This document shows, one piece after another, positions 3,349 to 39,341 of a stretch of DNA of 64,000 bases (position 1 is its first letter; every line of letters begins with the position of its first letter). The position numbers and the translations under genes are program-made. The notes under the pieces are model-generated. The model saw nothing but the letters and a program-made list of their open reading frames with translations, was not told where the DNA came from and ran no database searches. This stretch comes from a virus (lineage: Duplodnaviria > Caudoviricetes): the IMG/VR virus record IMGVR_UViG_3300021387_000087. The stretch is one strand, 5' to 3'.

Positions 3349-3678
3349 TCACTCCACGCCAATTTTATCAACGAGATTATGTGCGTCTAATACAAATTTT
3401 CTATATACTTGATAATCAAACTGCTCATTACAAGATTCCCGATAAGCAGCTTGCAATTTACAACAAATATCTATTATTGGCTCAGGATAGCAGAGCAATT
3501 CATTTAGCCCATCTATCTCCTTCATGAGATTCACAAAATATTTTGGGAAATCTACACTTTCATAATTTTGTGCGGTTTTCGGATCTTTATAGAGAAGTAG
3601 CCAAAATAATTTTTTATGGAGTTTACTTTTGAATTCAGCAACTTGTGCATCACTGAATTTACCGTAGAGATATTCCAT
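3349..3678 (-). CDS. Hypothetical head-tail region protein
   Basis: Translationally coupled ORF in the structural operon. Confidence 0.5.
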   Translation of the reverse strand: MEYLYGKFSDAQVAEFKSKLHKKLFWLLLYKDPKTAQNYESVDFPKYFVNLMKEIDGLNELLCYPEPIIDICCKLQAAYRESCNEQFDYQVYRKFVLDAHNLVDKIGVE

Positions 3679-4244
3679 TAGGACTCACCACTCCTTAGTC
3701 TGGATGAATATGAGGTGCCATCAATATATGAATTATTAGTTAAACCACGATCTCTGATAAGTTTTCTTTGTAAATAAATTGCTTTATCTAAAACTTCATT
3801 ATTTACAGCAGTATGATTAGCTTGTGCATAAAATTTCTCTGCGCTAGTACCATACATCTGTGTAAGATTCACGGTACTAAACACCAACGGCATAAGCCAC
3901 TGTACAATCATTCCATACCCAATAACATCTGCAATAAATATCTTATCTAAAGATTCATTAATTTCTCTTACTAATTCATATTCAATATGTCCTTCAACAA
4001 TAACAGGTTCGCCTGTTTCTTCATCCACAACAACTTCACCATCTTCGTCCAGCTTTTCAGTTGGATCATTAATGGTAATGTTGTTAAACAGTCTGCTTAC
4101 ATAAGGGTCACTAACAGCGGAATAAATTAAACCCCATAAAAATTCATTCCGATATTCATCTGTGATATCTTCTGTAAACAAATTAAGTATCTCCCCCTTC
4201 CGAAGAAAGGAGGAGATTAATTCGTCATATGTAATAGTAGGCAT
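3678..4244 (-). CDS. Putative head-tail adaptor
   Basis: Position downstream of the capsid gene; GGAGG RBS. Confidence 0.45.
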   Translation of the reverse strand: MPTITYDELISSFLRKGEILNLFTEDITDEYRNEFLWGLIYSAVSDPYVSRLFNNITINDPTEKLDEDGEVVVDEETGEPVIVEGHIEYELVREINESLDKIFIADVIGYGMIVQWLMPLVFSTVNLTQMYGTSAEKFYAQANHTAVNNEVLDKAIYLQRKLIRDRGLTNNSYIDGTSYSSRLRSGES

Positions 4245-4264
4245 TGGACTACCTCCTATTCACA

Positions 4265-4846
4265 TTATTCTGTATCGCTATTTAGCCCAGTCAGAATAGC
4301 CAAGTCAGTGCCCCAAGCACCATCTAAAGCCCTGATAGTAGAAATGCTATCAAGTTCACCTGTTCTGACCATGTCAGCAGCAACACTCTTCATACTATCT
4401 ACAACGCCAGCGGGCAGATTAGGAAGAATTGCCTGAACTTCCCTTACAGGTCTTTTAAGTAAAGCCTTTAAATCCGATACCGGATAAAGATTCTCATAGA
4501 ACTGCTTTAATTTAGGAAACTCATTAATAAAGTCCTGATCTTCGACAATAATCATAGGACGGAAGAGTAGATTAGTGCCAGCACGTACTTCTGCTACCAA
4601 ATCCTGATATTCAATACCAATTGTGTCATTTCTACCCAAAAACGTGTAAATCATATTAGTTCTTTTGCCAAGAAGATGTGTTTTACCAACAAGTACAGAC
4701 TTACAAGGAATTCTGTCATCAGATGCAAACTTCCTCTTTTCTGAGACAGTCTTCTTTGTTTCTACAACTTCAGGCTCAATCACAACATTCTCAGCAATTG
4801 TAGGTGCAGGTGTAATAACCTGCGTTTTCTTAGCACTTCTTGCCAT
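4265..4846 (-). CDS. Hypothetical protein directly downstream of the major capsid gene
   Basis: 193 aa ORF with AGGAG RBS. Confidence 0.55.
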   Translation of the reverse strand: MARSAKKTQVITPAPTIAENVVIEPEVVETKKTVSEKRKFASDDRIPCKSVLVGKTHLLGKRTNMIYTFLGRNDTIGIEYQDLVAEVRAGTNLLFRPMIIVEDQDFINEFPKLKQFYENLYPVSDLKALLKRPVREVQAILPNLPAGVVDSMKSVAADMVRTGELDSISTIRALDGAWGTDLAILTGLNSDTE

Positions 4847-4884
4847 AATTCTTTACTCCTTTTAAATCCAATATTTAATTATTA

Positions 4885-5988
4885 TTAGGCGGGAAGAGTC
4901 CACATACCGAAATAACGACCAAGCTGAACGCCCACGCCGAAGCCACGGGTCATTTCATACTTCATAACGTCATCCCAACGACCGTTCTCTTCACCCTTCT
5001 CGGTGACCTGATAAATCTCGGTCTCACCCTGATCAACGACCTTGACAAACTTATCCTCGATAACAGGCAGAATAAGTAAAATCTTATCATCAAAAGCTTT
5101 CTGAGTCAGGGACTTATCCAAATAACGCTGAGGAATCTCAACCAGCTCAGTTCCCTCGTAAGTACCAAGTCTACCAGTATTAGCAACAGACTCCTTCTGA
5201 GACTGTGCTCTCCAGTCAACATCAGTCAGAGCGTTCAGTTTCTTCAGAGCAGTTTTAGTACCAACAATAATAGCTTCACACCCATTAATGGTTTCGACTT
5301 CTGTGATAATCTCATCAAAAGTATCTTTAACCAAAGTGTTATTACCAATCAGAGTAGGAGAAGCGGGAAGCTTCTTATAAGCATCGCCAAATGCCGCATA
5401 AATCTGATTAATAAGTTCAGTCTGGAATGCCTTAGCAACTGCATTCACCAGTGCAGCCCAATCTTCTTGACCAACAAGATAACGATCAATCTGTGCGCCA
5501 ACAGCAGCACCATAGACTTCCTGCTTAACAGTAAATCTTTCGCCCCTGCCAAGTCTCTGGAGTACGAAATCATGATGCTGACCAGAAACCTTAGCAACAC
5601 TCAGAAGAGTGTCATCCTCAGTTACGAATTCAATAATATCATCATTGGCGATAGAACGTCTGTCAACATACTGCATGAAGAAATCGTTCTCACGAAGTCC
5701 TTCCTCAATCTTCAGATCAACAACTTCCTCGATAACTTCAAACAGCTCTTCGCCGTGCTTACGCATTGCACGATGCAGAGTGCGTTTAGTAGGCTTCTCT
5801 TCATGAATATCAAGAATCTGATAAACGAATTTTCTCAGCTTATCATTAGCTTCCTGCTTACCAATAACCTTGCCATCATCAACAATATCATTGCCCATAG
5901 CAAGATCAAACATCAGATTGCGAACAGACTCATAAGGAGTCTCCGCAAAGATATTTCTAAGGTGTTCAGTAGAAAATACTTTAATCAT
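4885..5988 (-). CDS. Major capsid protein (SPbeta YonB-like position)
   Basis: 367 aa, follows protease/scaffold and decoration genes, highly-expressed-type codon usage. Confidence 0.8.
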   Translation of the reverse strand: MIKVFSTEHLRNIFAETPYESVRNLMFDLAMGNDIVDDGKVIGKQEANDKLRKFVYQILDIHEEKPTKRTLHRAMRKHGEELFEVIEEVVDLKIEEGLRENDFFMQYVDRRSIANDDIIEFVTEDDTLLSVAKVSGQHHDFVLQRLGRGERFTVKQEVYGAAVGAQIDRYLVGQEDWAALVNAVAKAFQTELINQIYAAFGDAYKKLPASPTLIGNNTLVKDTFDEIITEVETINGCEAIIVGTKTALKKLNALTDVDWRAQSQKESVANTGRLGTYEGTELVEIPQRYLDKSLTQKAFDDKILLILPVIEDKFVKVVDQGETEIYQVTEKGEENGRWDDVMKYEMTRGFGVGVQLGRYFGMWTLPA

Positions 5989-32675: not shown

Positions 32676-33170
32676 TCATTTAATCCTTAGCCCCCTTGTC
32701 TGAACCAGATGTGCCACACCATCAAGAGCAACGCCAGCTTTAAGGTCTTCCTTTAATAGCTTCTTGTCAACCGTAGGGTCAGCTGGTTTCAAATACTTCT
32801 TAGGAATTTTATCAATATCAACATCTACCACAACACTCGCAGGATTATTCTGAATATTGAAAGAGAAGAGTGGTGTCTTAATTTTTGTCTTACCCATCAA
32901 TTCCATGGCTCCTTGAAGAGATTTCTTCATACGGTCAGCTTTATGTTTAAAAACCTTTCCTTTTTCTGCAAATCGTTTAGATTCAGTATCACAAGCTTCA
33001 GCATCGTGTTCAAGCTGTCTAATTAATTTTGCATAACCATCTGCTTTATCCTCAATAGCACCATCAAGTCCCTCAAGTGTATCTATAAAAACTTCCTCTT
33101 CGATATCTGGGTCTTCAGCCATTTCCATAAGCATCAGCCAGTCATTTGTAAGTTCGTACAATGTAGCCAT
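32676..33170 (-). CDS. Siphovirus Gp157-family protein
   Basis: MATLYEL...DTLE...KIKTPLFSFNIQNNP. Confidence 0.85.
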   Translation of the reverse strand: MATLYELTNDWLMLMEMAEDPDIEEEVFIDTLEGLDGAIEDKADGYAKLIRQLEHDAEACDTESKRFAEKGKVFKHKADRMKKSLQGAMELMGKTKIKTPLFSFNIQNNPASVVVDVDIDKIPKKYLKPADPTVDKKLLKEDLKAGVALDGVAHLVQTRGLRIK

Positions 33171-33786
33171 TAAACATCACCTTCTTTCAATGTAGCTTCG
33201 TCTGCAATCTCTTTTACCTTAGGATCAAGATAAATATATACTTCCTTTTCAAGTTCAGATACTATTTCATCTAGATTGAAGAGTTTAAAACCATACACCA
33301 GATTAGCGACAAAAAGTACGAATATCATAATAACCTTAATAATCATTTTAATCTCCTTATTCAATAATAATATGTTTATCTGGATGTTCCATTATATCTT
33401 TAATTATATCTTCTTGACGAATACGAGTACAATCATATATCTTCAGCCAAGTGACAGTTTCTTTAAACTTTGTTTTCGCCTTACGCCGATTCGGTGCCAG
33501 TACATAATAGACTGGTTTATTTTCATTGTTTGGTCTGTAATCGGCTGTAATTGCAAAGAGGCATTGGTCTTCATATTTAGCCATTTCCCGTATTATCCTT
33601 TAAACTATCCAATATTCTTCTCCGCATTCAGGACATATGACAGTTAAACCAACTGTCTCATCGGTTATCATATCTCTTACTCTTCTAACATCATTTACCG
33701 TATAAATAAAAACAAGACCGCAGTTTTTGCATTTCTTTTTGTGATTTTTAATTTTAATATCTATCATAATTTTAATATCTGTCATT

Positions 33787-34404
33787 TTATACCTCTTCAT
33801 TAATAATATTCATCTGACAAGACTTCATTGTCATCAATGCTACTCTATGAAGTTCTGGGGTGGTACCTGCGCAACACGATGCATCAATAGTGATTTCTGC
33901 TTCGGGGAATGCCTGACGAAGTGCAAAAGCATTAGAGACTACACAAATATCAGTGCAAACGCCTATCAGCTCAAATTCAAGGTCTTCTCCTTTATAATCC
34001 AAAGGAACATACATATCCAAAAATGAATTCAAAAGATCAACCACTGTTCTCCAAACATTACCCTCAATTGCGAAATTTCCTTTAACAATAGTATTGTATC
34101 CTTCTTTTCCTTTAATCCACGGATGTCGTCCAGTCGCATGAACAGTATCTAGAATATCTTTCACAATATCCAACCCTCTATTACTTTGACAATGCGGAAC
34201 TGGTAAATAACGTCCTTCTCTTGTTTGCGGATAATCATCTTCATCATGCATATCCATCGTAAAAATTAAACGGTCATAATCTTTAACCTTAATCTTCTCA
34301 ACGACCTTTGGTACAATTGCCTGTGCTTCTGGAGTACCAAGAACGCCACTGATGAAATCATTTTGCATATCAATTACCATTAGAATTTTCTTTCTTTTGT
34401 TCAC
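33787..34404 (-). CDS. Isochorismatase-family cysteine hydrolase, nicotinamidase (PncA)-like
   Basis: IDMQNDF, DMH, PHC, GVCTDICV; overlaps the end of cas12f. Confidence 0.82.
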   Translation of the reverse strand: MNKRKKILMVIDMQNDFISGVLGTPEAQAIVPKVVEKIKVKDYDRLIFTMDMHDEDDYPQTREGRYLPVPHCQSNRGLDIVKDILDTVHATGRHPWIKGKEGYNTIVKGNFAIEGNVWRTVVDLLNSFLDMYVPLDYKGEDLEFELIGVCTDICVVSNAFALRQAFPEAEITIDASCCAGTTPELHRVALMTMKSCQMNIINEEV

Positions 34405-35767
34405 TTTTCTTTTTACTCCCTTCGTCTTCTTTAATAAAATTTTGTGACATCGCTATATTTCTAGCAGCATTAAAATCTGCATTAATATATTTTTGATTGC
34501 TATAAATTTTATGACAGATACACTCTGGATTGGTACAAATAAACTCTTTTTGCGTTTTCCGAAGTCCCCTTTCACCACAGACAGAACATGTCTGGGACGT
34601 GTATTTTGGATTAATCTTTCTCACTTCAATCCCGTGTATAGCAGCCTTATACTTAATCTTTTCTTGTAAATCATAATAAGACCAATTCCGCAGAATCATT
34701 TTTGAATGTTCATCATCTTTTACATGACCATATTTATCACGACCAAAGCCCGACAAATCTTCTATATTAATATATTTTGCTCCATTCTTGACTGCAAAAT
34801 CTACTACTCTGCGACTAACCATATGAGAATATGTTTGGACAAAATTTTTCTCCCGCTTTTTCAAACGATCTAATGCACGAAGTTTTTTCTGTCTACCATG
34901 ACCGCCTTTACTATCTTTCAATGCATGCTGTAAACGTCTTCTTTCATTCTGTATCTGAGTTCTAATTCGTAAGAACTCATCTGCGCTTCCAATAGCCAAA
35001 CGTTTATAGTAGTCATTATTTAATGCGCACATTGCAGGAACCGCTTGCCCCAAGTCTACGCCTAATACGACATCTTCATTCAAAGCAGTTTCAACTTTTG
35101 GCACTTCTAATGTAAGATTGATAATAATCTTTGTTCCTTTGATTTCTATTGTGCTACCACCAACTTTATATTCTTCTGTAAAAATTCGTTTAAAAACTTC
35201 CCGCTGTTCTTTACTACGATAAGGATTCCCAAATCGAAACTTAAAAGTAATATTGTTACAAAACTTAATAAGAACTTCTGGCTTCATATCATTTTCCAAA
35301 GCTTCAAAAAGTTTTGCTGGAGTTTCATAATTATGATAGATACCATTATCATCTTTTTTAGTGCCACGAAGTGCAACAAAATTTACATGTACAATTAAAG
35401 GATTGTTGCTTCTGTAAGTTGGTAATGAGATACGCCCATACATCAAACCCTTTTTACAAGCATTATCAAAATCTTGCTTAACTTTTCTACTTGCAGAAGC
35501 TGCAATTGGTAGACCCACAGGAAATTTTATATCTTTTGTATATCCACTGCCCTTTTTACTATTGGTAACTCTCTGAAACAAATTATTTAATTCTTTTCTA
35601 TCTTCCAATGACATTTCATAAGACTTTGCCATAAATAAATGAGATATATATTCATTCATAGCTTTATTTTGTGCTTCAATGCCCTGTTTTAACCATGTAT
35701 ATACTCTATTAATTTCTTCTTTATCTCCAACTACTTGAAGTTCATATTTTCTTGTTAAATTTGGCAT
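34370..35767 (-). CDS. cas12f: Cas12f-family (type V-F, C2c10-like) RNA-guided nuclease, 465 aa
   Basis: RuvC-I GVDLG, RuvC-II IEDLS, CSVC zinc finger, RuvC-III NADFNAARNIA; GRISLPTYR, GGHGRQKKL and LRNWSYYDLQ segments recall Cn/AsCas12f1; 36 bp from a CRISPR array. Confidence 0.88.
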   Translation of the reverse strand: MPNLTRKYELQVVGDKEEINRVYTWLKQGIEAQNKAMNEYISHLFMAKSYEMSLEDRKELNNLFQRVTNSKKGSGYTKDIKFPVGLPIAASASRKVKQDFDNACKKGLMYGRISLPTYRSNNPLIVHVNFVALRGTKKDDNGIYHNYETPAKLFEALENDMKPEVLIKFCNNITFKFRFGNPYRSKEQREVFKRIFTEEYKVGGSTIEIKGTKIIINLTLEVPKVETALNEDVVLGVDLGQAVPAMCALNNDYYKRLAIGSADEFLRIRTQIQNERRRLQHALKDSKGGHGRQKKLRALDRLKKREKNFVQTYSHMVSRRVVDFAVKNGAKYINIEDLSGFGRDKYGHVKDDEHSKMILRNWSYYDLQEKIKYKAAIHGIEVRKINPKYTSQTCSVCGERGLRKTQKEFICTNPECICHKIYSNQKYINADFNAARNIAMSQNFIKEDEGSKKKSEQKKENSNGN

Positions 35768-35803
35768 TATTAATTCCTTTTACTTTTATTTATACCCGTA
35801 TAT

Positions 35804-36163
35804 ACTTCAATTCATACCATATATAAATTAAATCAATTTGATCCGGGATGATTCCATTGTAGACTATGCTTCAATTCACACCTATGTACAAATTGAATCC
35901 TTTTACATAATAAAAGGGACAGCCCACAACCACGCTTCAATTCATATTTGTATACAAATTAAGTCATCGTCCAACCATAACGCGAATCATGGTCAATCTG
36001 CTTCAATTCACGTCTACGTACAAATTGAATCCTGCCTGATCCACCATCAGAGCATACTTTTCCCATACTTCAATTCATACCTGCCTACAAATTGAATCAT
36101 AGAGAACAAATTTGCCTGACAAGGATGGTAAGCTTCAATTCATACCTACGCACAAATTGAATC
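35804..36163 (-). CRISPR. CRISPR array: 6 repeats (31-32 bp), 5 spacers (33, 34, 34, 35, 33 bp)
   Basis: Repeats at 35804-35834, 35868-35899, 35934-35965, 36000-36031, 36067-36098, 36132-36163; plus-strand consensus RCTTCAATTCAYRYYTRYVYACAAATTGAATC; the most degenerate copy is next to cas12f, which suggests minus orientation. Confidence 0.92.
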
Positions 36164-36345
36164 GGCAAATATCAACTATAACCCCTTATATATACGACTT
36201 TTTTTATTCAATTTGTATGTATGATGATTTATTGAGTGGATCAACTCCCTCAACTTTCGGACGTGAAGCCGCCCGTAATACTTTAATAGTATTAATTTAT
36301 GGTGCGAACATACTTAATATTCTCTGTTCACTTTATGTTCGCACT
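36164..36345 (-). ncRNA. Leader/tracrRNA-like region with anti-repeat and hairpin
   Basis: Inverted partial repeat ATTCAATTTGTATGTATGATGATTTATTGAGT starting at 36206; 11-bp hairpin GTGCGAACATA/TATGTTCGCAC at 36302-36344. Confidence 0.65.
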
Positions 36346-36889
36346 GTTTTTTTTATTCTTTATTCCCCATAATCTCATTCCAAATTTCTACATACTCATC
36401 ACCAAGCTGATGACAGAACTGACTTAATATATATTCTTCTTTAATATATCTGCTTTCCCAACGCTTTAAGTTTTCTAACCAATTAGTTAAAGAATCAGTA
36501 GAATTAACCCCTAACATATAGTTATTAACACCATACTGGAAAGTCTTATAAGCAGATTCATAACAACACTTCACGCTAAGCAAATCGTAGCACTTGCTTT
36601 TAATAAACTCTTTAAGTCTTTCTTCGCTAATCATTTAATTACCGCATGCCTTTCTTCTTTTTATAAAGCCGATTAAGTTCCTGCTCGTACATCTTTCTTT
36701 CAATCGGAGATTTACTGTACTTAATACGTTTTTTTAAATCAGATACTGAATATTCGATATCAGGTGGTTTGAGCGCTTCCATAATGTCCTTAAGTTTTGT
36801 ATTAGTATCTATCAGTGTCTGAATCAAGTTTCTCATTTCGGCTTCCATGTTGTTAATACCTCGTGTTTAATTATCAATTGTCAAAAACT

Positions 36890-36917
36890 ATTATAGCGAA
36901 CTTTAGTGTAAAGTCAA
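36890..36917 (-). promoter_or_regulatory. Sigma-A-type promoter upstream of two small ORFs and the CRISPR-cas12f locus
   Basis: TTGACT-16 nt-TATAAT. Confidence 0.6.
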
Positions 36918-37246
36918 GAGGTTTTTACTCTTCTTCATCGTCTTCGTCCAACTCGTCATCTTCAATATATGCAGGATATTCTTTATTAGTTGCTACTACA
37001 TCATCTTCGCCTTCTTTGTTCTTGCGAACCCTAAAAATAACAGAAGAGGGATCACTATCAAAAACCAACAAATCCAATGCGTTTATATCTTTTTTAGGCG
37101 GTTTACCAGTACGGAAGGGGTACAAAGCGCACCCCTTTACTGTACAATTTTTTGAATTAGAAGGACTCAGTGAACATTGTCTACATCTTGCAATAGCAGC
37201 TAGTCTCCAAGTTAATTTTCTAAAAGGTTTCTTTTCATCTGCCATA

Positions 37247-37783
37247 TTAGTCCCAATCCTCCGGCCATTCTTTACCTTCTAATTTATACACTGTCTTCCA
37301 ATAATCTCTAGTTGGCTCTAATGTCTGGAAACAATAAGGCACTTCTTCTGATTCTTCAGGCATCTTGAACTCTCCGTCAGGAATAATCAAACGCCACACA
37401 TATTCTGGTTTTTCAGCATATCCATTAATATACTGAAGATGCTTATCCACACGCAAATCTGCACCATCGCTAAACATTCCTTTAAGAATCATACCGTCTT
37501 CTAACTTTAACTGACCTGAAGCAATCTGACGAGCAATTTTTTCAAATAGAAAACTATAAGCATCTGGAGCATCAATTACAATTTGCAATTCATATGACCC
37601 ATATTTATCTAAACCATGAGTGTGAGCATCACACATACCATTAATAAATTCTCTCTTTTTAGACATCTGCTTTTTAGTTTTCGGATCATAATCAGTTACC
37701 CAATGCACAGTATAATCTACTTTCTTCAACTTATTACTCATACTTATTCCTCCGATCATTAATCTCCATAATCTTACTAGCAA
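37247..37783 (-). CDS. Hypothetical protein (DAHTHGL motif)
   Basis: ORF; likely start MSNKLKK after GGAGG. Confidence 0.55.
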   Translation of the reverse strand: MLVRLWRLMIGGISMSNKLKKVDYTVHWVTDYDPKTKKQMSKKREFINGMCDAHTHGLDKYGSYELQIVIDAPDAYSFLFEKIARQIASGQLKLEDGMILKGMFSDGADLRVDKHLQYINGYAEKPEYVWRLIIPDGEFKMPEESEEVPYCFQTLEPTRDYWKTVYKLEGKEWPEDWD

Positions 37784-37976
37784 TATTTAATCTGAACCCC
37801 GCAAAGGGTGGAAGAGTAGTGCCATAGTAATCCTGCATAAATGTCATAGGATTCGCATGCCACCTCTTAATCATCTCTTCCTTGCTTTGCTCCAATACAT
37901 ATTCTTTTTTAAATATAGACAAAAAGAAATATTTAATCCTGTTAATCAATCTTTTCCTGTAACATTCAACATTCAT
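37734..37976 (-). CDS. Small protein resembling the terminase N-terminal segment
   Basis: RWHANPMTFMQDYYGTTLPPF versus terL YYRANPQRFVKDVLQFKTIRLRWF. Confidence 0.4.
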   Translation of the reverse strand: MNVECYRKRLINRIKYFFLSIFKKEYVLEQSKEEMIKRWHANPMTFMQDYYGTTLPPFAGFRLNIASKIMEINDRRNKYE

Positions 37977-37985
37977 TGTAACAAA

Positions 37986-39341
37986 TTAACTCCATTTAAT
38001 TTTAACATTATTTTTCTTGCATGCTTCCAACACTTTAGACCATTCATACTTTTTAAAAGTAGTAAGTACTCTAATAACGCCAGCATTATCACCCCAAGCA
38101 CCCTTTCCAATTTCTTTTGCAAGAACATCAAGACTAACTTTCTTTCTGCGATTAACTTCATCAACGGCACCCTGACCCATTTGTCGATAATCTCCAAGCG
38201 CTTTAGCACGAGCGTCACCAGACCCAAAATATCCATTGATAATCGCGGCTGCAAAAGCATATTTCAAAGCCGTCTTATCTTTATTTAAAATATTAACTCG
38301 GTTCTGAATCGCTTTAGCATTATTGGCACCAAACAAAGCGGTAAGAGTATTACTGCGCTGAGGGTCTTTACCATAAGCACCAGCAAACACCTTGCATGCG
38401 TATGCCGTAGTTTGGATCAAATTAAGCTGCTTATTAATAGCCTTATACTTAATCCACTTAATCTTAGTAAGACTCTTTTCTGCATAAATAGAAGCATAAC
38501 CTTCATCATAAATATCACATGTAATATTTCCATACAAATAATTTCCAAGCACTCGGCAACCAGCTGTATTAAATCTATTAATAACCATTGTGCGCCCAGA
38601 ACTTTTATAACTGCTATGATAATCCAACAGACCATACTTAGCGCCCATAGCTTTACAAAACGCTAAACTGCTTGCATCCTGATCTCCATGCCACTGTACA
38701 TGTACAAAATCAGGCTTTAGCGGATTCTTTCCATATCGTTCAATAAACTGATTATTCGCTTCTTTTGCGTTATCACCACCACCATAATAAGTCCATGTGC
38801 GACCATGAATATCTGTCAGAGTAAACAACGTACCAAGAGATGTATTATTTACATAATGATGCGAATCTACTTCTTTCAGCTTCTTATAATTAGACCTAAA
38901 AATTACATTGCATTTAATATTGCCAACTTTGAAACCATCACCTTCTGTAATATAATGAACATTCTCTTCACCACATTCTGTGATACACTGCTTGCGAATT
39001 TTATCTATATAATTCGCACGACCTTTAAGAGAAGAGTGATACAAAAATGGCTCTTTAGATGGAAGATAAAAAGATTTTACTTTAAACGCCTTTGTATATC
39101 TTGTTGTATCCCCCATATGGTCTTCATGTGGATGTGTAAATACAACAGCATCAACTTCTCCAGATTTAATAATAGATTGATACGCTTTTAGTGCATCACA
39201 ATCCGCACTACCAGTATCAATAATTACACAATGTGCAACATTACCTTTATCATCATATTCAATAATTGCAGTACTACTTCCCGACTCTTCAGAATGATAC
39301 TTAAAAAGTGACGGTTGAAAAATACAAAATCTCTTACTCAT
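37986..39341 (-). CDS. Metallo-beta-lactamase-fold hydrolase (ComEC/Pce-like) with C-terminal CW_7-like repeats
   Basis: IIDTG, THPHEDHMG, NNTS, GGD, WHG; GAYG/GYFG/GAWG repeats. Confidence 0.75.
   Translation of the reverse strand: MSKRFCIFQPSLFKYHSEESGSSTAIIEYDDKGNVAHCVIIDTGSADCDALKAYQSIIKSGEVDAVVFTHPHEDHMGDTTRYTKAFKVKSFYLPSKEPFLYHSSLKGRANYIDKIRKQCITECGEENVHYITEGDGFKVGNIKCNVIFRSNYKKLKEVDSHHYVNNTSLGTLFTLTDIHGRTWTYYGGGDNAKEANNQFIERYGKNPLKPDFVHVQWHGDQDASSLAFCKAMGAKYGLLDYHSSYKSSGRTMVINRFNTAGCRVLGNYLYGNITCDIYDEGYASIYAEKSLTKIKWIKYKAINKQLNLIQTTAYACKVFAGAYGKDPQRSNTLTALFGANNAKAIQNRVNILNKDKTALKYAFAAAIINGYFGSGDARAKALGDYRQMGQGAVDEVNRRKKVSLDVLAKEIGKGAWGDNAGVIRVLTTFKKYEWSKVLEACKKNNVKIKWS

What the first reader, a model, noticed from the sequence alone, without database searches (positions are those of the whole stretch)
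36132..36238. Anti-repeat inside the leader could fold with the first repeat into a natural single guide
Seen: 42 nt from repeat 6 lies an inverted, nearly full-length repeat copy. On a minus-strand transcript, ACAAAUUGAAU pairs perfectly with the repeat's AUUCAAUUUGU (11 bp), and pairing continues with wobbles and bulges to UCAAU/AUUGA. Inference: tracrRNA and pre-crRNA are one transcript, an arrangement between TnpB omega-RNA and the split tracr/crRNA of Cas12f. The same segment may also act in trans on the other repeats.
Basis: partly seen in the sequence, partly recalled or inferred. Interest (0 to 1): 0.75.

Follow-up and report, generated by a model that had tools for sequence, protein, structure and literature searches.

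The report
Cas12f tracrRNA abutting its CRISPR array
The inverted repeat copy is the pairing end of the helper RNA (tracrRNA) of a phage-borne miniature CRISPR nuclease, Cas12f: an ordinary part of a known system, unusual only in sitting directly in front of the array, so helper and guides are probably made as one precursor transcript.

Summary
The 11-mer ATTCAATTTGT occurs five times in 64 kb (0.10 expected): four times in repeats and once inverted at 36206, 42 nt from the leader-proximal repeat.

The segment is the 3' anti-repeat of a ~140-nt Cas12f1-type tracrRNA (36345-36206, minus strand). It lies upstream of, and on the same strand as, a six-repeat array and an intact 465-aa cas12f.

A covariance model of its core finds 219 copies next to homologous genes, all on the gene strand. 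Pairing is 96% against 74% in shuffles, and 12 of 15 pairs show compensatory changes.

The stem-3 loop GCUUCA is complementary to the repeat's last bases, UGAAGC, which is the known Cas12f pseudoknot.

The architecture matches published, validated sgRNAs (Cas12f-MG119-2, Al3Cas12f).

Co-transcription with the array is plausible: no promoter- or terminator-like site separates them, and relatives have linkers as short as about 10 nt. It remains unproven. The 42-nt linker is the best conserved segment (41/42 identical in a relative), so it is not a passive loop.

A functional, unprocessed "natural single guide" remains speculative.

The scan has already reported this phage tracrRNA-plus-mini-array layout on other DNA. 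This is a new member of a known kind.

The parts
36206..36345 (-). tracrRNA gene (~140 nt): stem 1, stem 2, stem 3, stem 4 and the 3' anti-repeat
   Evidence: The MFE fold shows all four stems. The covariance-model hit at 36198-36278(-) scores 64.6 bits, E 2e-22. Covariation is shown. Stems 1-2 are conserved, with compensatory changes, in L163, L162 and L003. The 5' end is inferred, not mapped.
36302..36344 (-). tracrRNA stem 1 (GUGCGAACAU...AUGUUCGCAC)
   Evidence: L162 keeps it through an A-U to G-C change. Read on the plus strand it mimics a terminator hairpin followed by T9; that reading was rejected.
36277..36293 (-). tracrRNA stem 2
   Evidence: pairs 72-84 and 75-81 show compensatory changes.
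36258..36275 (-). tracrRNA stem 3 (CGGGCG-GCUUCA-CGUCCG)
   Evidence: helix 1 is 96.9% paired, and 5 of 6 pairs change on both sides.
36264..36269 (-). stem-3 loop GCUUCA: the second anti-repeat (pseudoknot, R:AR-1), complementary to the repeat 3' end UGAAGC
   Evidence: Read directly. Across the family, 68 of 80 units pair their own loop with their own repeat tail, against a control mean of 7.5. The published equivalents in the Al3Cas12f and MG119-2 sgRNAs are; the PK concept is from PMC10097598.
36231..36254 (-). tracrRNA stem 4 (UUGAGGGAGUUGAUCCACUCAA, with an A bulge)
   Evidence: helix 2 is 96.0% paired, and 7 of 9 pairs change on both sides.
36206..36230 (-). 3' anti-repeat (R:AR-2 strand): ...AAAUCAUCAUACAUACAAAUUGAAU
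   Evidence: Covariation with the repeats is seen between W and L163. Own-unit pairing is stronger in 49 of 50 multi-unit loci.
36164..36205 (-). 42-nt linker / CRISPR leader between anti-repeat and first repeat
   Evidence: It has no U-run and no sigma-70-like promoter by the scan. It is 41/42 identical in L163, making it the most conserved segment of the locus.
35804..36163 (-). CRISPR array, six 32-nt repeats in transcription order: 36163-36132, 36098-36067, 36031-36000, 35965-35934, 35899-35868 and 35835-35804 (degenerate), with five spacers of 33-35 nt
   Evidence: The repeat 3' end GAAUUGAAGC resembles the validated crRNA handle of SpCas12f1.
34370..35767 (-). cas12f (465 aa, P0001), with intact RuvC D238/E336/D431 and zinc ribbon
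36890..36917 (-). best promoter-like site (TTGACT-16-TATAAT), upstream of two small ORFs (36848-36639 and 36634-36353), the tracrRNA, the array and cas12f
   Evidence: This is a consensus match only.

Best explanation
Window 36206-36238 is the 3' end of a genuine type V-F1 (Cas12f1) tracrRNA, about 140 nt long, transcribed from the minus strand (36345-36206).

The tracrRNA has four stems and two contacts with each CRISPR repeat:
- the six-base loop of stem 3 (GCUUCA) pairs with the last bases of the repeat (UGAAGC), next to the spacer (R:AR-1, the pseudoknot).

The tracrRNA gene lies 42 nt upstream of, and on the same strand as, the six-repeat array, which runs straight into cas12f.

Inferred steps:
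- The small ORFs, tracrRNA, array and cas12f are transcribed together from a promoter near 36917.
- In that precursor the tail can fold back on the first repeat in cis and pair with the later repeats in trans.
- Host RNases then trim the duplexes to the usual tracrRNA:crRNA pair, which loads a Cas12f dimer for DNA cleavage.

Shown: the sequence, its homology, its strand and the covariation.
Not shown: co-transcription, processing and activity.
For: Protein:
- PDB Al3Cas12f (9NZO/9NZR) 3e-65 and 8HR5 2.5e-63.
- Pfam Cas12f1-like_TNB and NCBIfam guided_TnpB.
- The catalytic triad and zinc-ribbon cysteines are invariant in 21 homologues.

RNA:
- Covariance model R1 finds 219 matches in the window plus 99 homologous loci, all on the gene strand. 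The window's only match is 36198-36278(-), E 2e-22.
- 96.4% of cells are paired against 73.9% in shuffles; 12 of 15 pairs change on both sides; slid controls give 29-43%. Many G:U pairs would be A.C on the other strand.
- Pseudoknot covariation: 68 of 80 units against a control mean of 7.5.
- The anti-repeat pairs best with its own unit's repeat in 49 of 50 multi-unit loci.
- The same order of elements (stem, short A-rich linker, UUGAGGG...CCACUC stem, anti-repeat, then the repeat 3' end) appears in the validated Cas12f-MG119-2 and Al3Cas12f sgRNAs (PMC13186708).

Co-transcription:
- No promoter- or terminator-like site lies on the minus strand between 36890 and 35489.
- The linker has no U-run.
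- Relatives have linkers as short as about 10 nt.
- RNAalifold predicts the cis duplex in four relatives.
Against: - There are no expression data of any kind.
- The 42-nt linker is 41/42 identical in L163, while the tracrRNA stems are 71-88% and cas12f DNA 84% identical. That argues for a sequence-specific function, such as an array promoter or an integration leader. -10-like hexamers are present in the linker (TATATA/TATAAG here, TATAAT in L162, TATAAA in L003).
- The phage may use promoters the sigma-70 scan cannot see.
- One tracrRNA serves five spacers, so trans action is needed in any case.
- Each repeat can also fold on itself (-5 to -11 kcal/mol).
- The position upstream of cas12f departs from the published rule that the array lies downstream of cas12 (PMC10691335).
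Confidence: 0.8

Rival explanations
1. Separate genes, trans only. The tracrRNA and the pre-crRNA are independent transcripts. The conserved 42-nt leader carries the array's own promoter (and/or integration signals), and the tracrRNA acts on all repeats in trans exactly as in canonical Cas12f1 systems. The cis fold with the first repeat is an incidental result of proximity.
For: - The leader is 41/42 conserved in L163, more than any other part of the locus.
- -10-like hexamers lie in the linker of W, L162 and L003.
- Bacterial relatives keep 55-180 nt between anti-repeat and array. Two Bacteroidales loci have a T-run right after the anti-repeat, i.e. a separate tracrRNA end.
- Published RNA-seq and RIP-seq of Cas12f1 systems recover separate tracrRNA and crRNA species (PMC8548392).
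- One tracrRNA must serve five spacers here.
Against: - There is no U-run or terminator-like hairpin after the anti-repeat, so tracrRNA transcription should read into the array anyway.
- The scan finds no sigma-70-like promoter in the linker; the possible -35 (TTGAAT) is only 11-15 nt from the -10-like hexamers.
- Phage relatives with linkers of about 10-15 nt leave no room for a promoter.
Confidence: 0.35
2. True natural single guide. The unprocessed tracrRNA-linker-repeat1-spacer1 RNA is itself the active guide, an omega-RNA-like molecule with a 42-nt loop in place of the tetraloop. This gives the leader-proximal spacer a privileged, processing-independent route into Cas12f.
For: - The topology matches engineered sgRNAs, in which the distal end of R:AR-2 is replaced by GAAA, and the omega-RNA, which has been called a 'natural sgRNA' (PMC10097598).
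- The leader-proximal repeat gives the strongest duplex (-20.2 kcal/mol).
- In relatives most units hold only 1-3 repeats, each unit with its own cognate tracrRNA. That is easiest to understand if scaffold and guide work as one unit.
Against: - There are no RNA data.
- A duplex of about 20 bp is a likely RNase III substrate.
- Repeat 3 pairs almost as well (-19.8 kcal/mol).
- Leader conservation points to another role for the 'loop'.
- The spacer 3' end would still need trimming from the downstream array.
Confidence: 0.25
3. The element is on the plus strand: a tracrRNA with a 5' anti-repeat (36206 onward) ending at the hairpin plus T9 at 36302-36355, as in Cas9 tracrRNAs.
For: On the plus strand, GTGCGAACAT...ATGTTCGCAC is followed by TGTTTTTTTTT, which looks like an intrinsic terminator.
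Against: - All 219 model matches lie on the gene strand.
- G:U pairs are frequent in the stems.
- The A/T-run is absent in L163, L162 and L003, while the hairpin is kept as stem 1.
- Validated homologous sgRNAs have the same polarity as the minus strand here.
- All neighbouring genes are on the minus strand.
Confidence: 0.02
4. The guide is tracrRNA-independent. Each palindromic repeat folds on itself (UUCAAUUUGU...AUGAAUUGAA) as a Cas12a/Cas12j-style crRNA hairpin, and the inverted copy is a leftover of array rearrangement.
For: Each repeat self-folds at -5.4 to -11.3 kcal/mol, with the variable bases in the loop.
Against: - The inverted copy is part of a conserved, covarying scaffold found at 219 sites.
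- The anti-repeat and the pseudoknot loop co-vary with their own repeats.
- All characterised close homologues need a tracrRNA (PMC13186708, PMC8548392).
Confidence: 0.04

Closest known systems
Type V-F1 CRISPR-Cas12f1 tracrRNA / sgRNA scaffold of the Clostridia-Bacteroidales clade (Cas12f-MG119-2, Al3Cas12f [PDB 9NZO/9NZR], CnCas12f1 [8HR5], RhCas12f [9NZP], AsCas12f1, SpCas12f1)
   Same: - The effector is homologous (3e-65 to Al3Cas12f).
- The tracrRNA has the same order of elements: a G-C-rich hairpin whose loop matches the repeat's last bases, a short A-rich joiner, a UUGAGGG...CCACUC hairpin, and a 3' anti-repeat. The crRNA handle is the repeat's 3' end.
- The tracrRNA lies upstream of, and is co-oriented with, the array.
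- There are no adaptation genes.
   Different: - The gene order here is tracrRNA-array-cas12f rather than cas12f-tracrRNA-array (PMC8548392, PMC10691335).
- The gap to the array is only 42 nt and has no terminator, against 55-180 nt in the bacterial loci read here.
- The R:AR-2 duplex is long, about 20 bp and covering most of the repeat.
- The repeats differ from one another in their middle.
- The locus is phage-borne.
TnpB omega-RNA (ISDra2), described as a 'natural sgRNA' (Nakagawa 2023, PMC10097598)
   Same: Both are colinear: scaffold, pseudoknot partner, stem (R:AR-2 equivalent), loop, crRNA-like strand, guide. Both may be a single transcript.
   Different: - The omega-RNA has a UUUA tetraloop, one guide and no repeat array. 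It overlaps the 3' end of tnpB at a transposon end.
- Here there is a 42-nt conserved linker, six repeats, no tnpA or IS ends, and the RNA lies upstream of the gene.
Chimeric single guide RNAs / omega-RNA arrays of nuclease-dead dCas12f-sigmaE systems (PMC13472631; Altae-Tran 2023, PMC10691335)
   Same: They belong to the same wider Cas12f1 clade. The literature describes a tracrRNA and half-repeat fused back into one RNA, and tandem duplication of whole guide units. The phage relatives found here likewise carry tandem tracrRNA-plus-mini-array units.
   Different: - Those effectors have lost RuvC residues and their CRISPR arrays, and no tracrRNA-like species was detected.
- Here the nuclease is intact, true repeat-spacer arrays persist, and the tracrRNA and repeat are still separated by a linker.
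Cas9 tracr-L natural single guide (Workman 2021, cited in PMC13472631)
   Same: Both involve the idea of a naturally occurring single-guide fold that includes a tracrRNA.
   Different: It is a different effector family and polarity. tracr-L represses the cas promoter. No target of that kind was sought or found here.

Membership tests
Type V-F1 Cas12f1 tracrRNA | Encoded beside a Cas12f1-type effector (400-550 aa, RuvC triad, zinc ribbon) | tested here: met
   P0001 is 465 aa. PDB Cas12f hits reach 3e-65. Pfam PF07282 and NCBIfam NF040570 match. D238/E336/D431 and the zinc-ribbon cysteines are invariant.
Type V-F1 Cas12f1 tracrRNA | 3' anti-repeat complementary to the CRISPR repeat (R:AR-2 / stem 5) | tested here: met
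   An 11-bp perfect core lies within a ~20-bp duplex at -20.2 kcal/mol. Own-unit specificity holds in 49 of 50 loci.
Type V-F1 Cas12f1 tracrRNA | Second contact: a pseudoknot between the tracrRNA and the guide-adjacent end of the repeat (R:AR-1) | tested here: met
   The loop GCUUCA faces the repeat end UGAAGC. Family covariation is 68 of 80 units against a control mean of 7.5. The concept comes from PMC10097598.
Type V-F1 Cas12f1 tracrRNA | Conserved multi-stem scaffold supported by covariation, on the crRNA strand | tested here: met
   219 model matches, all on the gene strand. 96.4% of cells are paired and 12 of 15 pairs change on both sides.
Type V-F1 Cas12f1 tracrRNA | Gene position between cas12f and the array | tested here: not met
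   The order here is tracrRNA-array-cas12f. In 80 viral relatives, modules lie upstream only in 18, downstream only in 19 and on both sides in 37. Position is a habit of the family, not part of the mechanism.
Type V-F1 Cas12f1 tracrRNA | Expressed as a small RNA bound by a Cas12f dimer and required for cleavage | not testable with these tools
   This needs RNA-seq or RIP-seq and interference assays.
TnpB omega-RNA (single-transcript guide) | Scaffold and guide made as one RNA | not testable with these tools
   The only evidence is indirect: no promoter- or terminator-like site in the linker, and linkers as short as about 10 nt in relatives.
TnpB omega-RNA (single-transcript guide) | One guide at a transposon end, overlapping the 3' end of tnpB, with no repeat array | tested here: not met
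   There are six repeats and five spacers, the RNA lies upstream of the gene, and the neighbours are phage genes with no tnpA.
dCas12f chimeric single gRNA | Nuclease-dead effector, loss of the CRISPR array, scaffold fused directly to the guide | tested here: not met
   The catalytic triad is intact and the array is present.

The most novel reading that the evidence does not exclude
In this phage Cas12f clade the working guide gene is an omega-RNA-like cassette. The tracrRNA, a short linker, the first repeat and the first spacer are transcribed, and possibly used, as one RNA, making it a natural single guide for a nuclease-active Cas12f. The window's locus is such a cassette whose array has grown to five spacers. 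That would make these loci living intermediates of the omega-RNA to tracrRNA/crRNA split.
Probability: 0.25. Interest if true: 0.6.

Novelty: new member of a known kind. Interest (0 to 1): 0.35.

Why it matters
The locus gives a fully annotated, apparently intact miniature Cas12f system: nuclease, tracrRNA with both repeat contacts, array and likely promoter. A working sgRNA can be designed from it directly.

Beyond that, the locus and its many phage relatives are convenient material for an open question: how the single omega-RNA of TnpB became the split tracrRNA/crRNA of Cas12f (Jin 2025, cited in PMC13565253; PMC10097598). Scaffold and array are still adjacent and co-oriented, and probably co-transcribed, so a simple end-mapping or RIP-seq experiment could show whether a cis single-guide form exists in nature.

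The element itself is otherwise an expected component of a known system.

Tried and rejected
- **Plus-strand tracrRNA with terminator (36302-36355):** rejected. All model hits lie on the gene strand, G:U pairs are frequent, and the T-run is not conserved.
- **Rfam:** no match in 33000-38000 even at E <= 1.
- **Cas12p 'hacker' (phage miniature Cas12, bioRxiv 10.1101/2025.01.20.633832):** only a distant hit, 1.9e-8. It is not the family.
- **Spacer targets:** the array plus tracrRNA against INPHARED phages gave no spacer match. The first 20 nt of spacers 1-3 had no exact match in IMG/VR. Targets and PAM remain unknown; spacers 4-5 were not searched.
- **A strict regex for perfect stem 3:** it found only 6 units and was replaced by the covariance model.
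- **Supplements of PMC10090079:** no searchable sgRNA motifs.
- **Direct alignment of the published MG119-2/Al3 sgRNAs to the window:** not run, because sequence from a paper is not to be typed into tools. The comparison was made by eye.
- **RNAalifold's alternative pairing** of the stem-1 3' strand (GUUCGCAC) with the repeat tail: supported only by one-sided changes in four sequences. It is left open; stem 1 and the stem-3-loop pseudoknot are preferred.

Full report
**1. The observation**

The window holds six 32-nt repeats with a period of 65-67 nt at 35804-36163. Read on the minus strand, the consensus is GAUUCAAUUUGU-variable middle-UGAAUUGAAGY. The copy next to cas12f is the most degenerate.

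An inverted copy starts at 36206, 42 nt from the repeat at 36132-36163. The repeat finder pairs 36206-36221 with that repeat (16 nt, 88%) and with the repeat at 36000-36031 (94%).

The exact 11-mer ATTCAATTTGT occurs five times in 64 kb: four times in repeats on the minus strand and once on the plus strand at 36206. Dinucleotide-preserving shuffles give 0.10 expected, and 0 of 100 shuffles reach five.

The minus-strand RNA 36345-36099 folds to -65.8 kcal/mol (z = -4.4). The anti-repeat pairs with the first repeat in the minimum-energy structure.

**2. The neighbourhood**

- The ORF at 35767-34370 (minus strand, 465 aa, P0001) starts 36 nt after the last repeat.
- It matches solved Cas12f structures: Al3Cas12f 9NZO/9NZR at 3e-65, 8HR5 at 2.5e-63, and RhCas12f 9NZP over nearly its full length.
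- It also matches Pfam Cas12f1-like_TNB and NCBIfam guided_TnpB.
- D238, E336, D431 and the zinc-ribbon cysteines are invariant in an alignment of 21 homologues, so the nuclease looks intact.
- The neighbours are phage genes (Siphovirus Gp157, a CW_7-bearing hydrolase). None of the ten neighbouring ORFs scanned matched a Cas1, Cas2, Cas4 or TnpA family.
- The family is large: 2759 proteins at E <= 0.001, and more than 470 relatives on IMG/VR contigs of 7-380 kb.

**3. The inverted copy belongs to a conserved structured RNA**

In gene orientation, many relatives show the same layout immediately upstream of an array:
- a G-C-rich hairpin (CGGGCG-loop-CGUCCG here);
- a short A-rich joiner;
- a GUGAG...ACUCA hairpin with an A bulge;
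- an anti-repeat.

A simple motif for the second hairpin occurs 313 times on the gene strand and 15 times on the other strand in loci L001-L104.

I built a covariance model of hairpin 3, hairpin 4 and the anti-repeat from 13 hand-picked units. It finds 219 matches at E <= 0.01 in the window plus 99 loci. Every match is on the gene strand. The window's single match is 36198-36278 (minus), 64.6 bits, E 2e-22.

On the 100 distinct rows of the resulting alignment:
- 96.4% of cells form pairs, against 73.9% in column shuffles and 29-43% when partners are slid;
- 12 of 15 pairs show changes on both sides;
- the covariation score is 0.622 against 0.189.

The alignment is fitted to the model, so these numbers lean towards the structure. 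The slid controls and the variety of pair types still make the helices secure. G:U pairs are frequent and would be A.C on the opposite strand. Together with the strand of all hits, this settles the polarity as the minus strand of the window.

Further 5', stems 1 (36344-36302) and 2 (36293-36277) are shared with the closest relatives L163, L162 and L003 and keep pairing through compensatory changes. That gives a tracrRNA of about 140 nt (36345-36206). The 5' end is inferred, not mapped.

**4.

The six-base loop of stem 3 (GCUUCA, 36269-36264) is complementary to the last bases of the repeat (UGAAGC), directly next to the spacer.

Across the family, the loop changes together with the repeat tail: ATTTTA with TAAAAC, ATTTCG with CGAAAC, ATTCAG with CTGAAC, ATTTGG with CCAAAC, and so on. 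I defined the repeats independently of the loop. With that definition, 68 of 80 units have a loop 5-mer complementary to the last 10 nt of their own repeat. When loops are swapped between classes, the mean is 7.5 and the maximum 16 in 1000 permutations.

This is the pseudoknot called R:AR-1 in Cas12f sgRNAs. The 3' anti-repeat duplex is R:AR-2, or stem 5 (PMC10097598).

UCAAU is the 3' strand of stem 4, and the repeat tail is used in the pseudoknot. R:AR-2 in this locus spans repeat positions 2-24.

**5. Comparison with validated guides**

Supplementary Data 1 of PMC13186708 lists empirically confirmed sgRNAs.

- Cas12f-MG119-2 has a 5' hairpin, then GGGC-loop-GUCC, UAAUA, UUGAGGGU...ACCACUCGA and a short anti-repeat. 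A GAAA joins this to the last 15 nt of the repeat.
- Al3Cas12f has the same order. Its loop GUUGGA faces the crRNA end UCCAAC.

The window's RNA has the same elements in the same order. The repeat's end, GAAUUGAAGC, also resembles the SpCas12f1 handle GGAUUGAAAC. I made this comparison by eye, because sequence from a paper was not fed into the tools.

The element is therefore a Cas12f1 tracrRNA, and 36206-36238 is its pairing tail.

**6. One transcript or two?**

Evidence for one precursor:
- The strongest promoter-like site on the minus strand is TTGACT-16-TATAAT at 36917-36890. It lies upstream of two small ORFs that end 8 nt before stem 1.
- From there to inside cas12f, no promoter-like or terminator-like site is found on the minus strand.
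- The linker has an A-run, not a U-run.
- In relatives the gap between anti-repeat and first repeat is often only about 10-15 nt, which leaves no room for a promoter. A T5 run occurs in 10 of 147 units.
- RNAalifold predicts the cis duplex in all four close relatives.

Evidence against, or at least complicating:
- In L163, whose cas12f DNA is 84% identical and which shares no spacer with the window, the 42-nt linker is 41/42 identical. By comparison, the anti-repeat is 89%, stems 3-4 are 88%, stems 1-2 are 71% and the first repeat is 81% identical. A passive loop would not be the best conserved piece of the locus. It probably carries a signal, such as an array promoter or a leader for spacer integration. 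-10-like hexamers are present in it.
- In bacterial relatives the tracrRNA is 55-180 nt from the array. In two Bacteroidales loci it is followed at once by a T-run, suggesting separate transcripts there.
- Published RNA-seq and RIP-seq of Cas12f1 systems recover separate tracrRNA and crRNA (PMC8548392).

My reading is that a common precursor is likely here (about 0.6). A ~20-bp R:AR-2 duplex would most likely be cut, giving the ordinary two-RNA guide. An unprocessed, functional single guide is possible (about 0.25) but has no direct support.

The tail also pairs well with repeats 2, 3 and 5 in trans (-17.3, -19.8 and -18.2 kcal/mol). It pairs poorly with the two degenerate repeats (-13.0 and -11.6).

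**7. The wider family**

Among 80 viral loci, tracrRNA modules lie upstream of the gene only in 18, downstream only in 19 and on both sides in 37. Of the 104 loci scanned, 58 hold two or more modules and 34 hold three or more.

L079 is an example. It has four tandem units at 3870-4960, each a scaffold followed by one to three repeats, with its own matching anti-repeat and pseudoknot loop. Its best promoter-like site lies just before the second unit's scaffold.

The anti-repeat pairs better with its own unit's repeats than with those of sister units in 49 of 50 non-redundant loci (-14.05 against -10.36 kcal/mol). The loci are related, so the p-value is only nominal.

Most units carry 1-3 repeats. 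The window's six is at the upper end.

[quoted passage not shown] The re-fusion of tracrRNA and repeat into single guides is documented for dead Cas12f (PMC13472631). This scan's earlier notes already report the same cassette layout in phages on other DNA. My analysis reached it independently, before that look-up.

**8. Verdict**

The segment is a tracrRNA anti-repeat, co-oriented with the array and probably co-transcribed with it.
- tracrRNA-then-array is the order in the bacterial Cas12f1 loci read here and in published loci, so it is not a special intermediate.
- What departs from the published pattern is the position upstream of cas12f, the short terminator-less but highly conserved linker, and the long R:AR-2 duplex.
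- The element is a new member of a known kind. Interest is modest unless RNA mapping shows a genuine cis single guide.

**Limits**
- No expression data are available.
- Spacer targets were not found.
- No genome is held for the window.

Noticed in passing
window 36164-36205 (minus strand); L163 1939-1980: The 42-nt leader between anti-repeat and first repeat is 41/42 identical in a relative whose cas12f DNA is 84% identical and whose eight-repeat array shares no spacer. A junction motif ATATTTGCY|G (ATTTGAG|G in other subclades) precedes the first repeat across the family. It suggests an integration leader or a promoter, with spacer turnover despite the absence of cas1/cas2.
   Followed up: partly
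L079 3870-4960; also L058, L072-L077, L010-L027: Many phage relatives carry two to five tandem cassettes, each a diverged tracrRNA scaffold plus a one-to-three-repeat mini-array, on one or both sides of cas12f. Each cassette has its own matching anti-repeat and pseudoknot loop. 58 of the 104 loci scanned have two or more.
   Followed up: partly
window 35804-36163: All six repeats differ in their middle (positions 12-22) while both ends are fixed. The ends are mutually complementary, so each repeat can fold on itself (-5 to -11 kcal/mol). The repeat's 3' half (UAUGAAUUGAA) resembles the tracrRNA tail (UACAAAUUGAA).
   Followed up: partly
window 36302-36355: tracrRNA stem 1, read on the plus strand, is a 10-bp hairpin followed by T9 and looks like an intrinsic terminator facing the array. 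The T/A-run is not conserved in L163, L162 or L003. It might stop antisense transcription, or it may be fortuitous.
   Followed up: partly
window 36353-36634 and 36639-36848 (minus strand): Two small ORFs (93 and 69 aa) with no Pfam or PHROG match lie between the best promoter-like site and the tracrRNA, in the same apparent operon as the CRISPR module. They are candidates for regulators or anti-defence proteins.
   Followed up: no
A4 columns 42-49 with 228-235 (window 36302-36309 with repeat positions about 18-25): RNAalifold proposes that the 3' strand of stem 1 (GUUCGCAC) could alternatively pair with the repeat's GUAUGAAU (GUGCGAAG in L162). That would be a possible third tracrRNA-repeat contact or a switch. 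It is supported only by one-sided changes in four sequences.
   Followed up: no
L100 (Clostridioides difficile chromosome OX246690.1) 1594-1685 and 3469-3551: A bacterial chromosome locus, possibly a prophage, also has tracrRNA modules on both sides of the cas12f homologue. The two-sided layout may therefore not be confined to free phage contigs.
   Followed up: no
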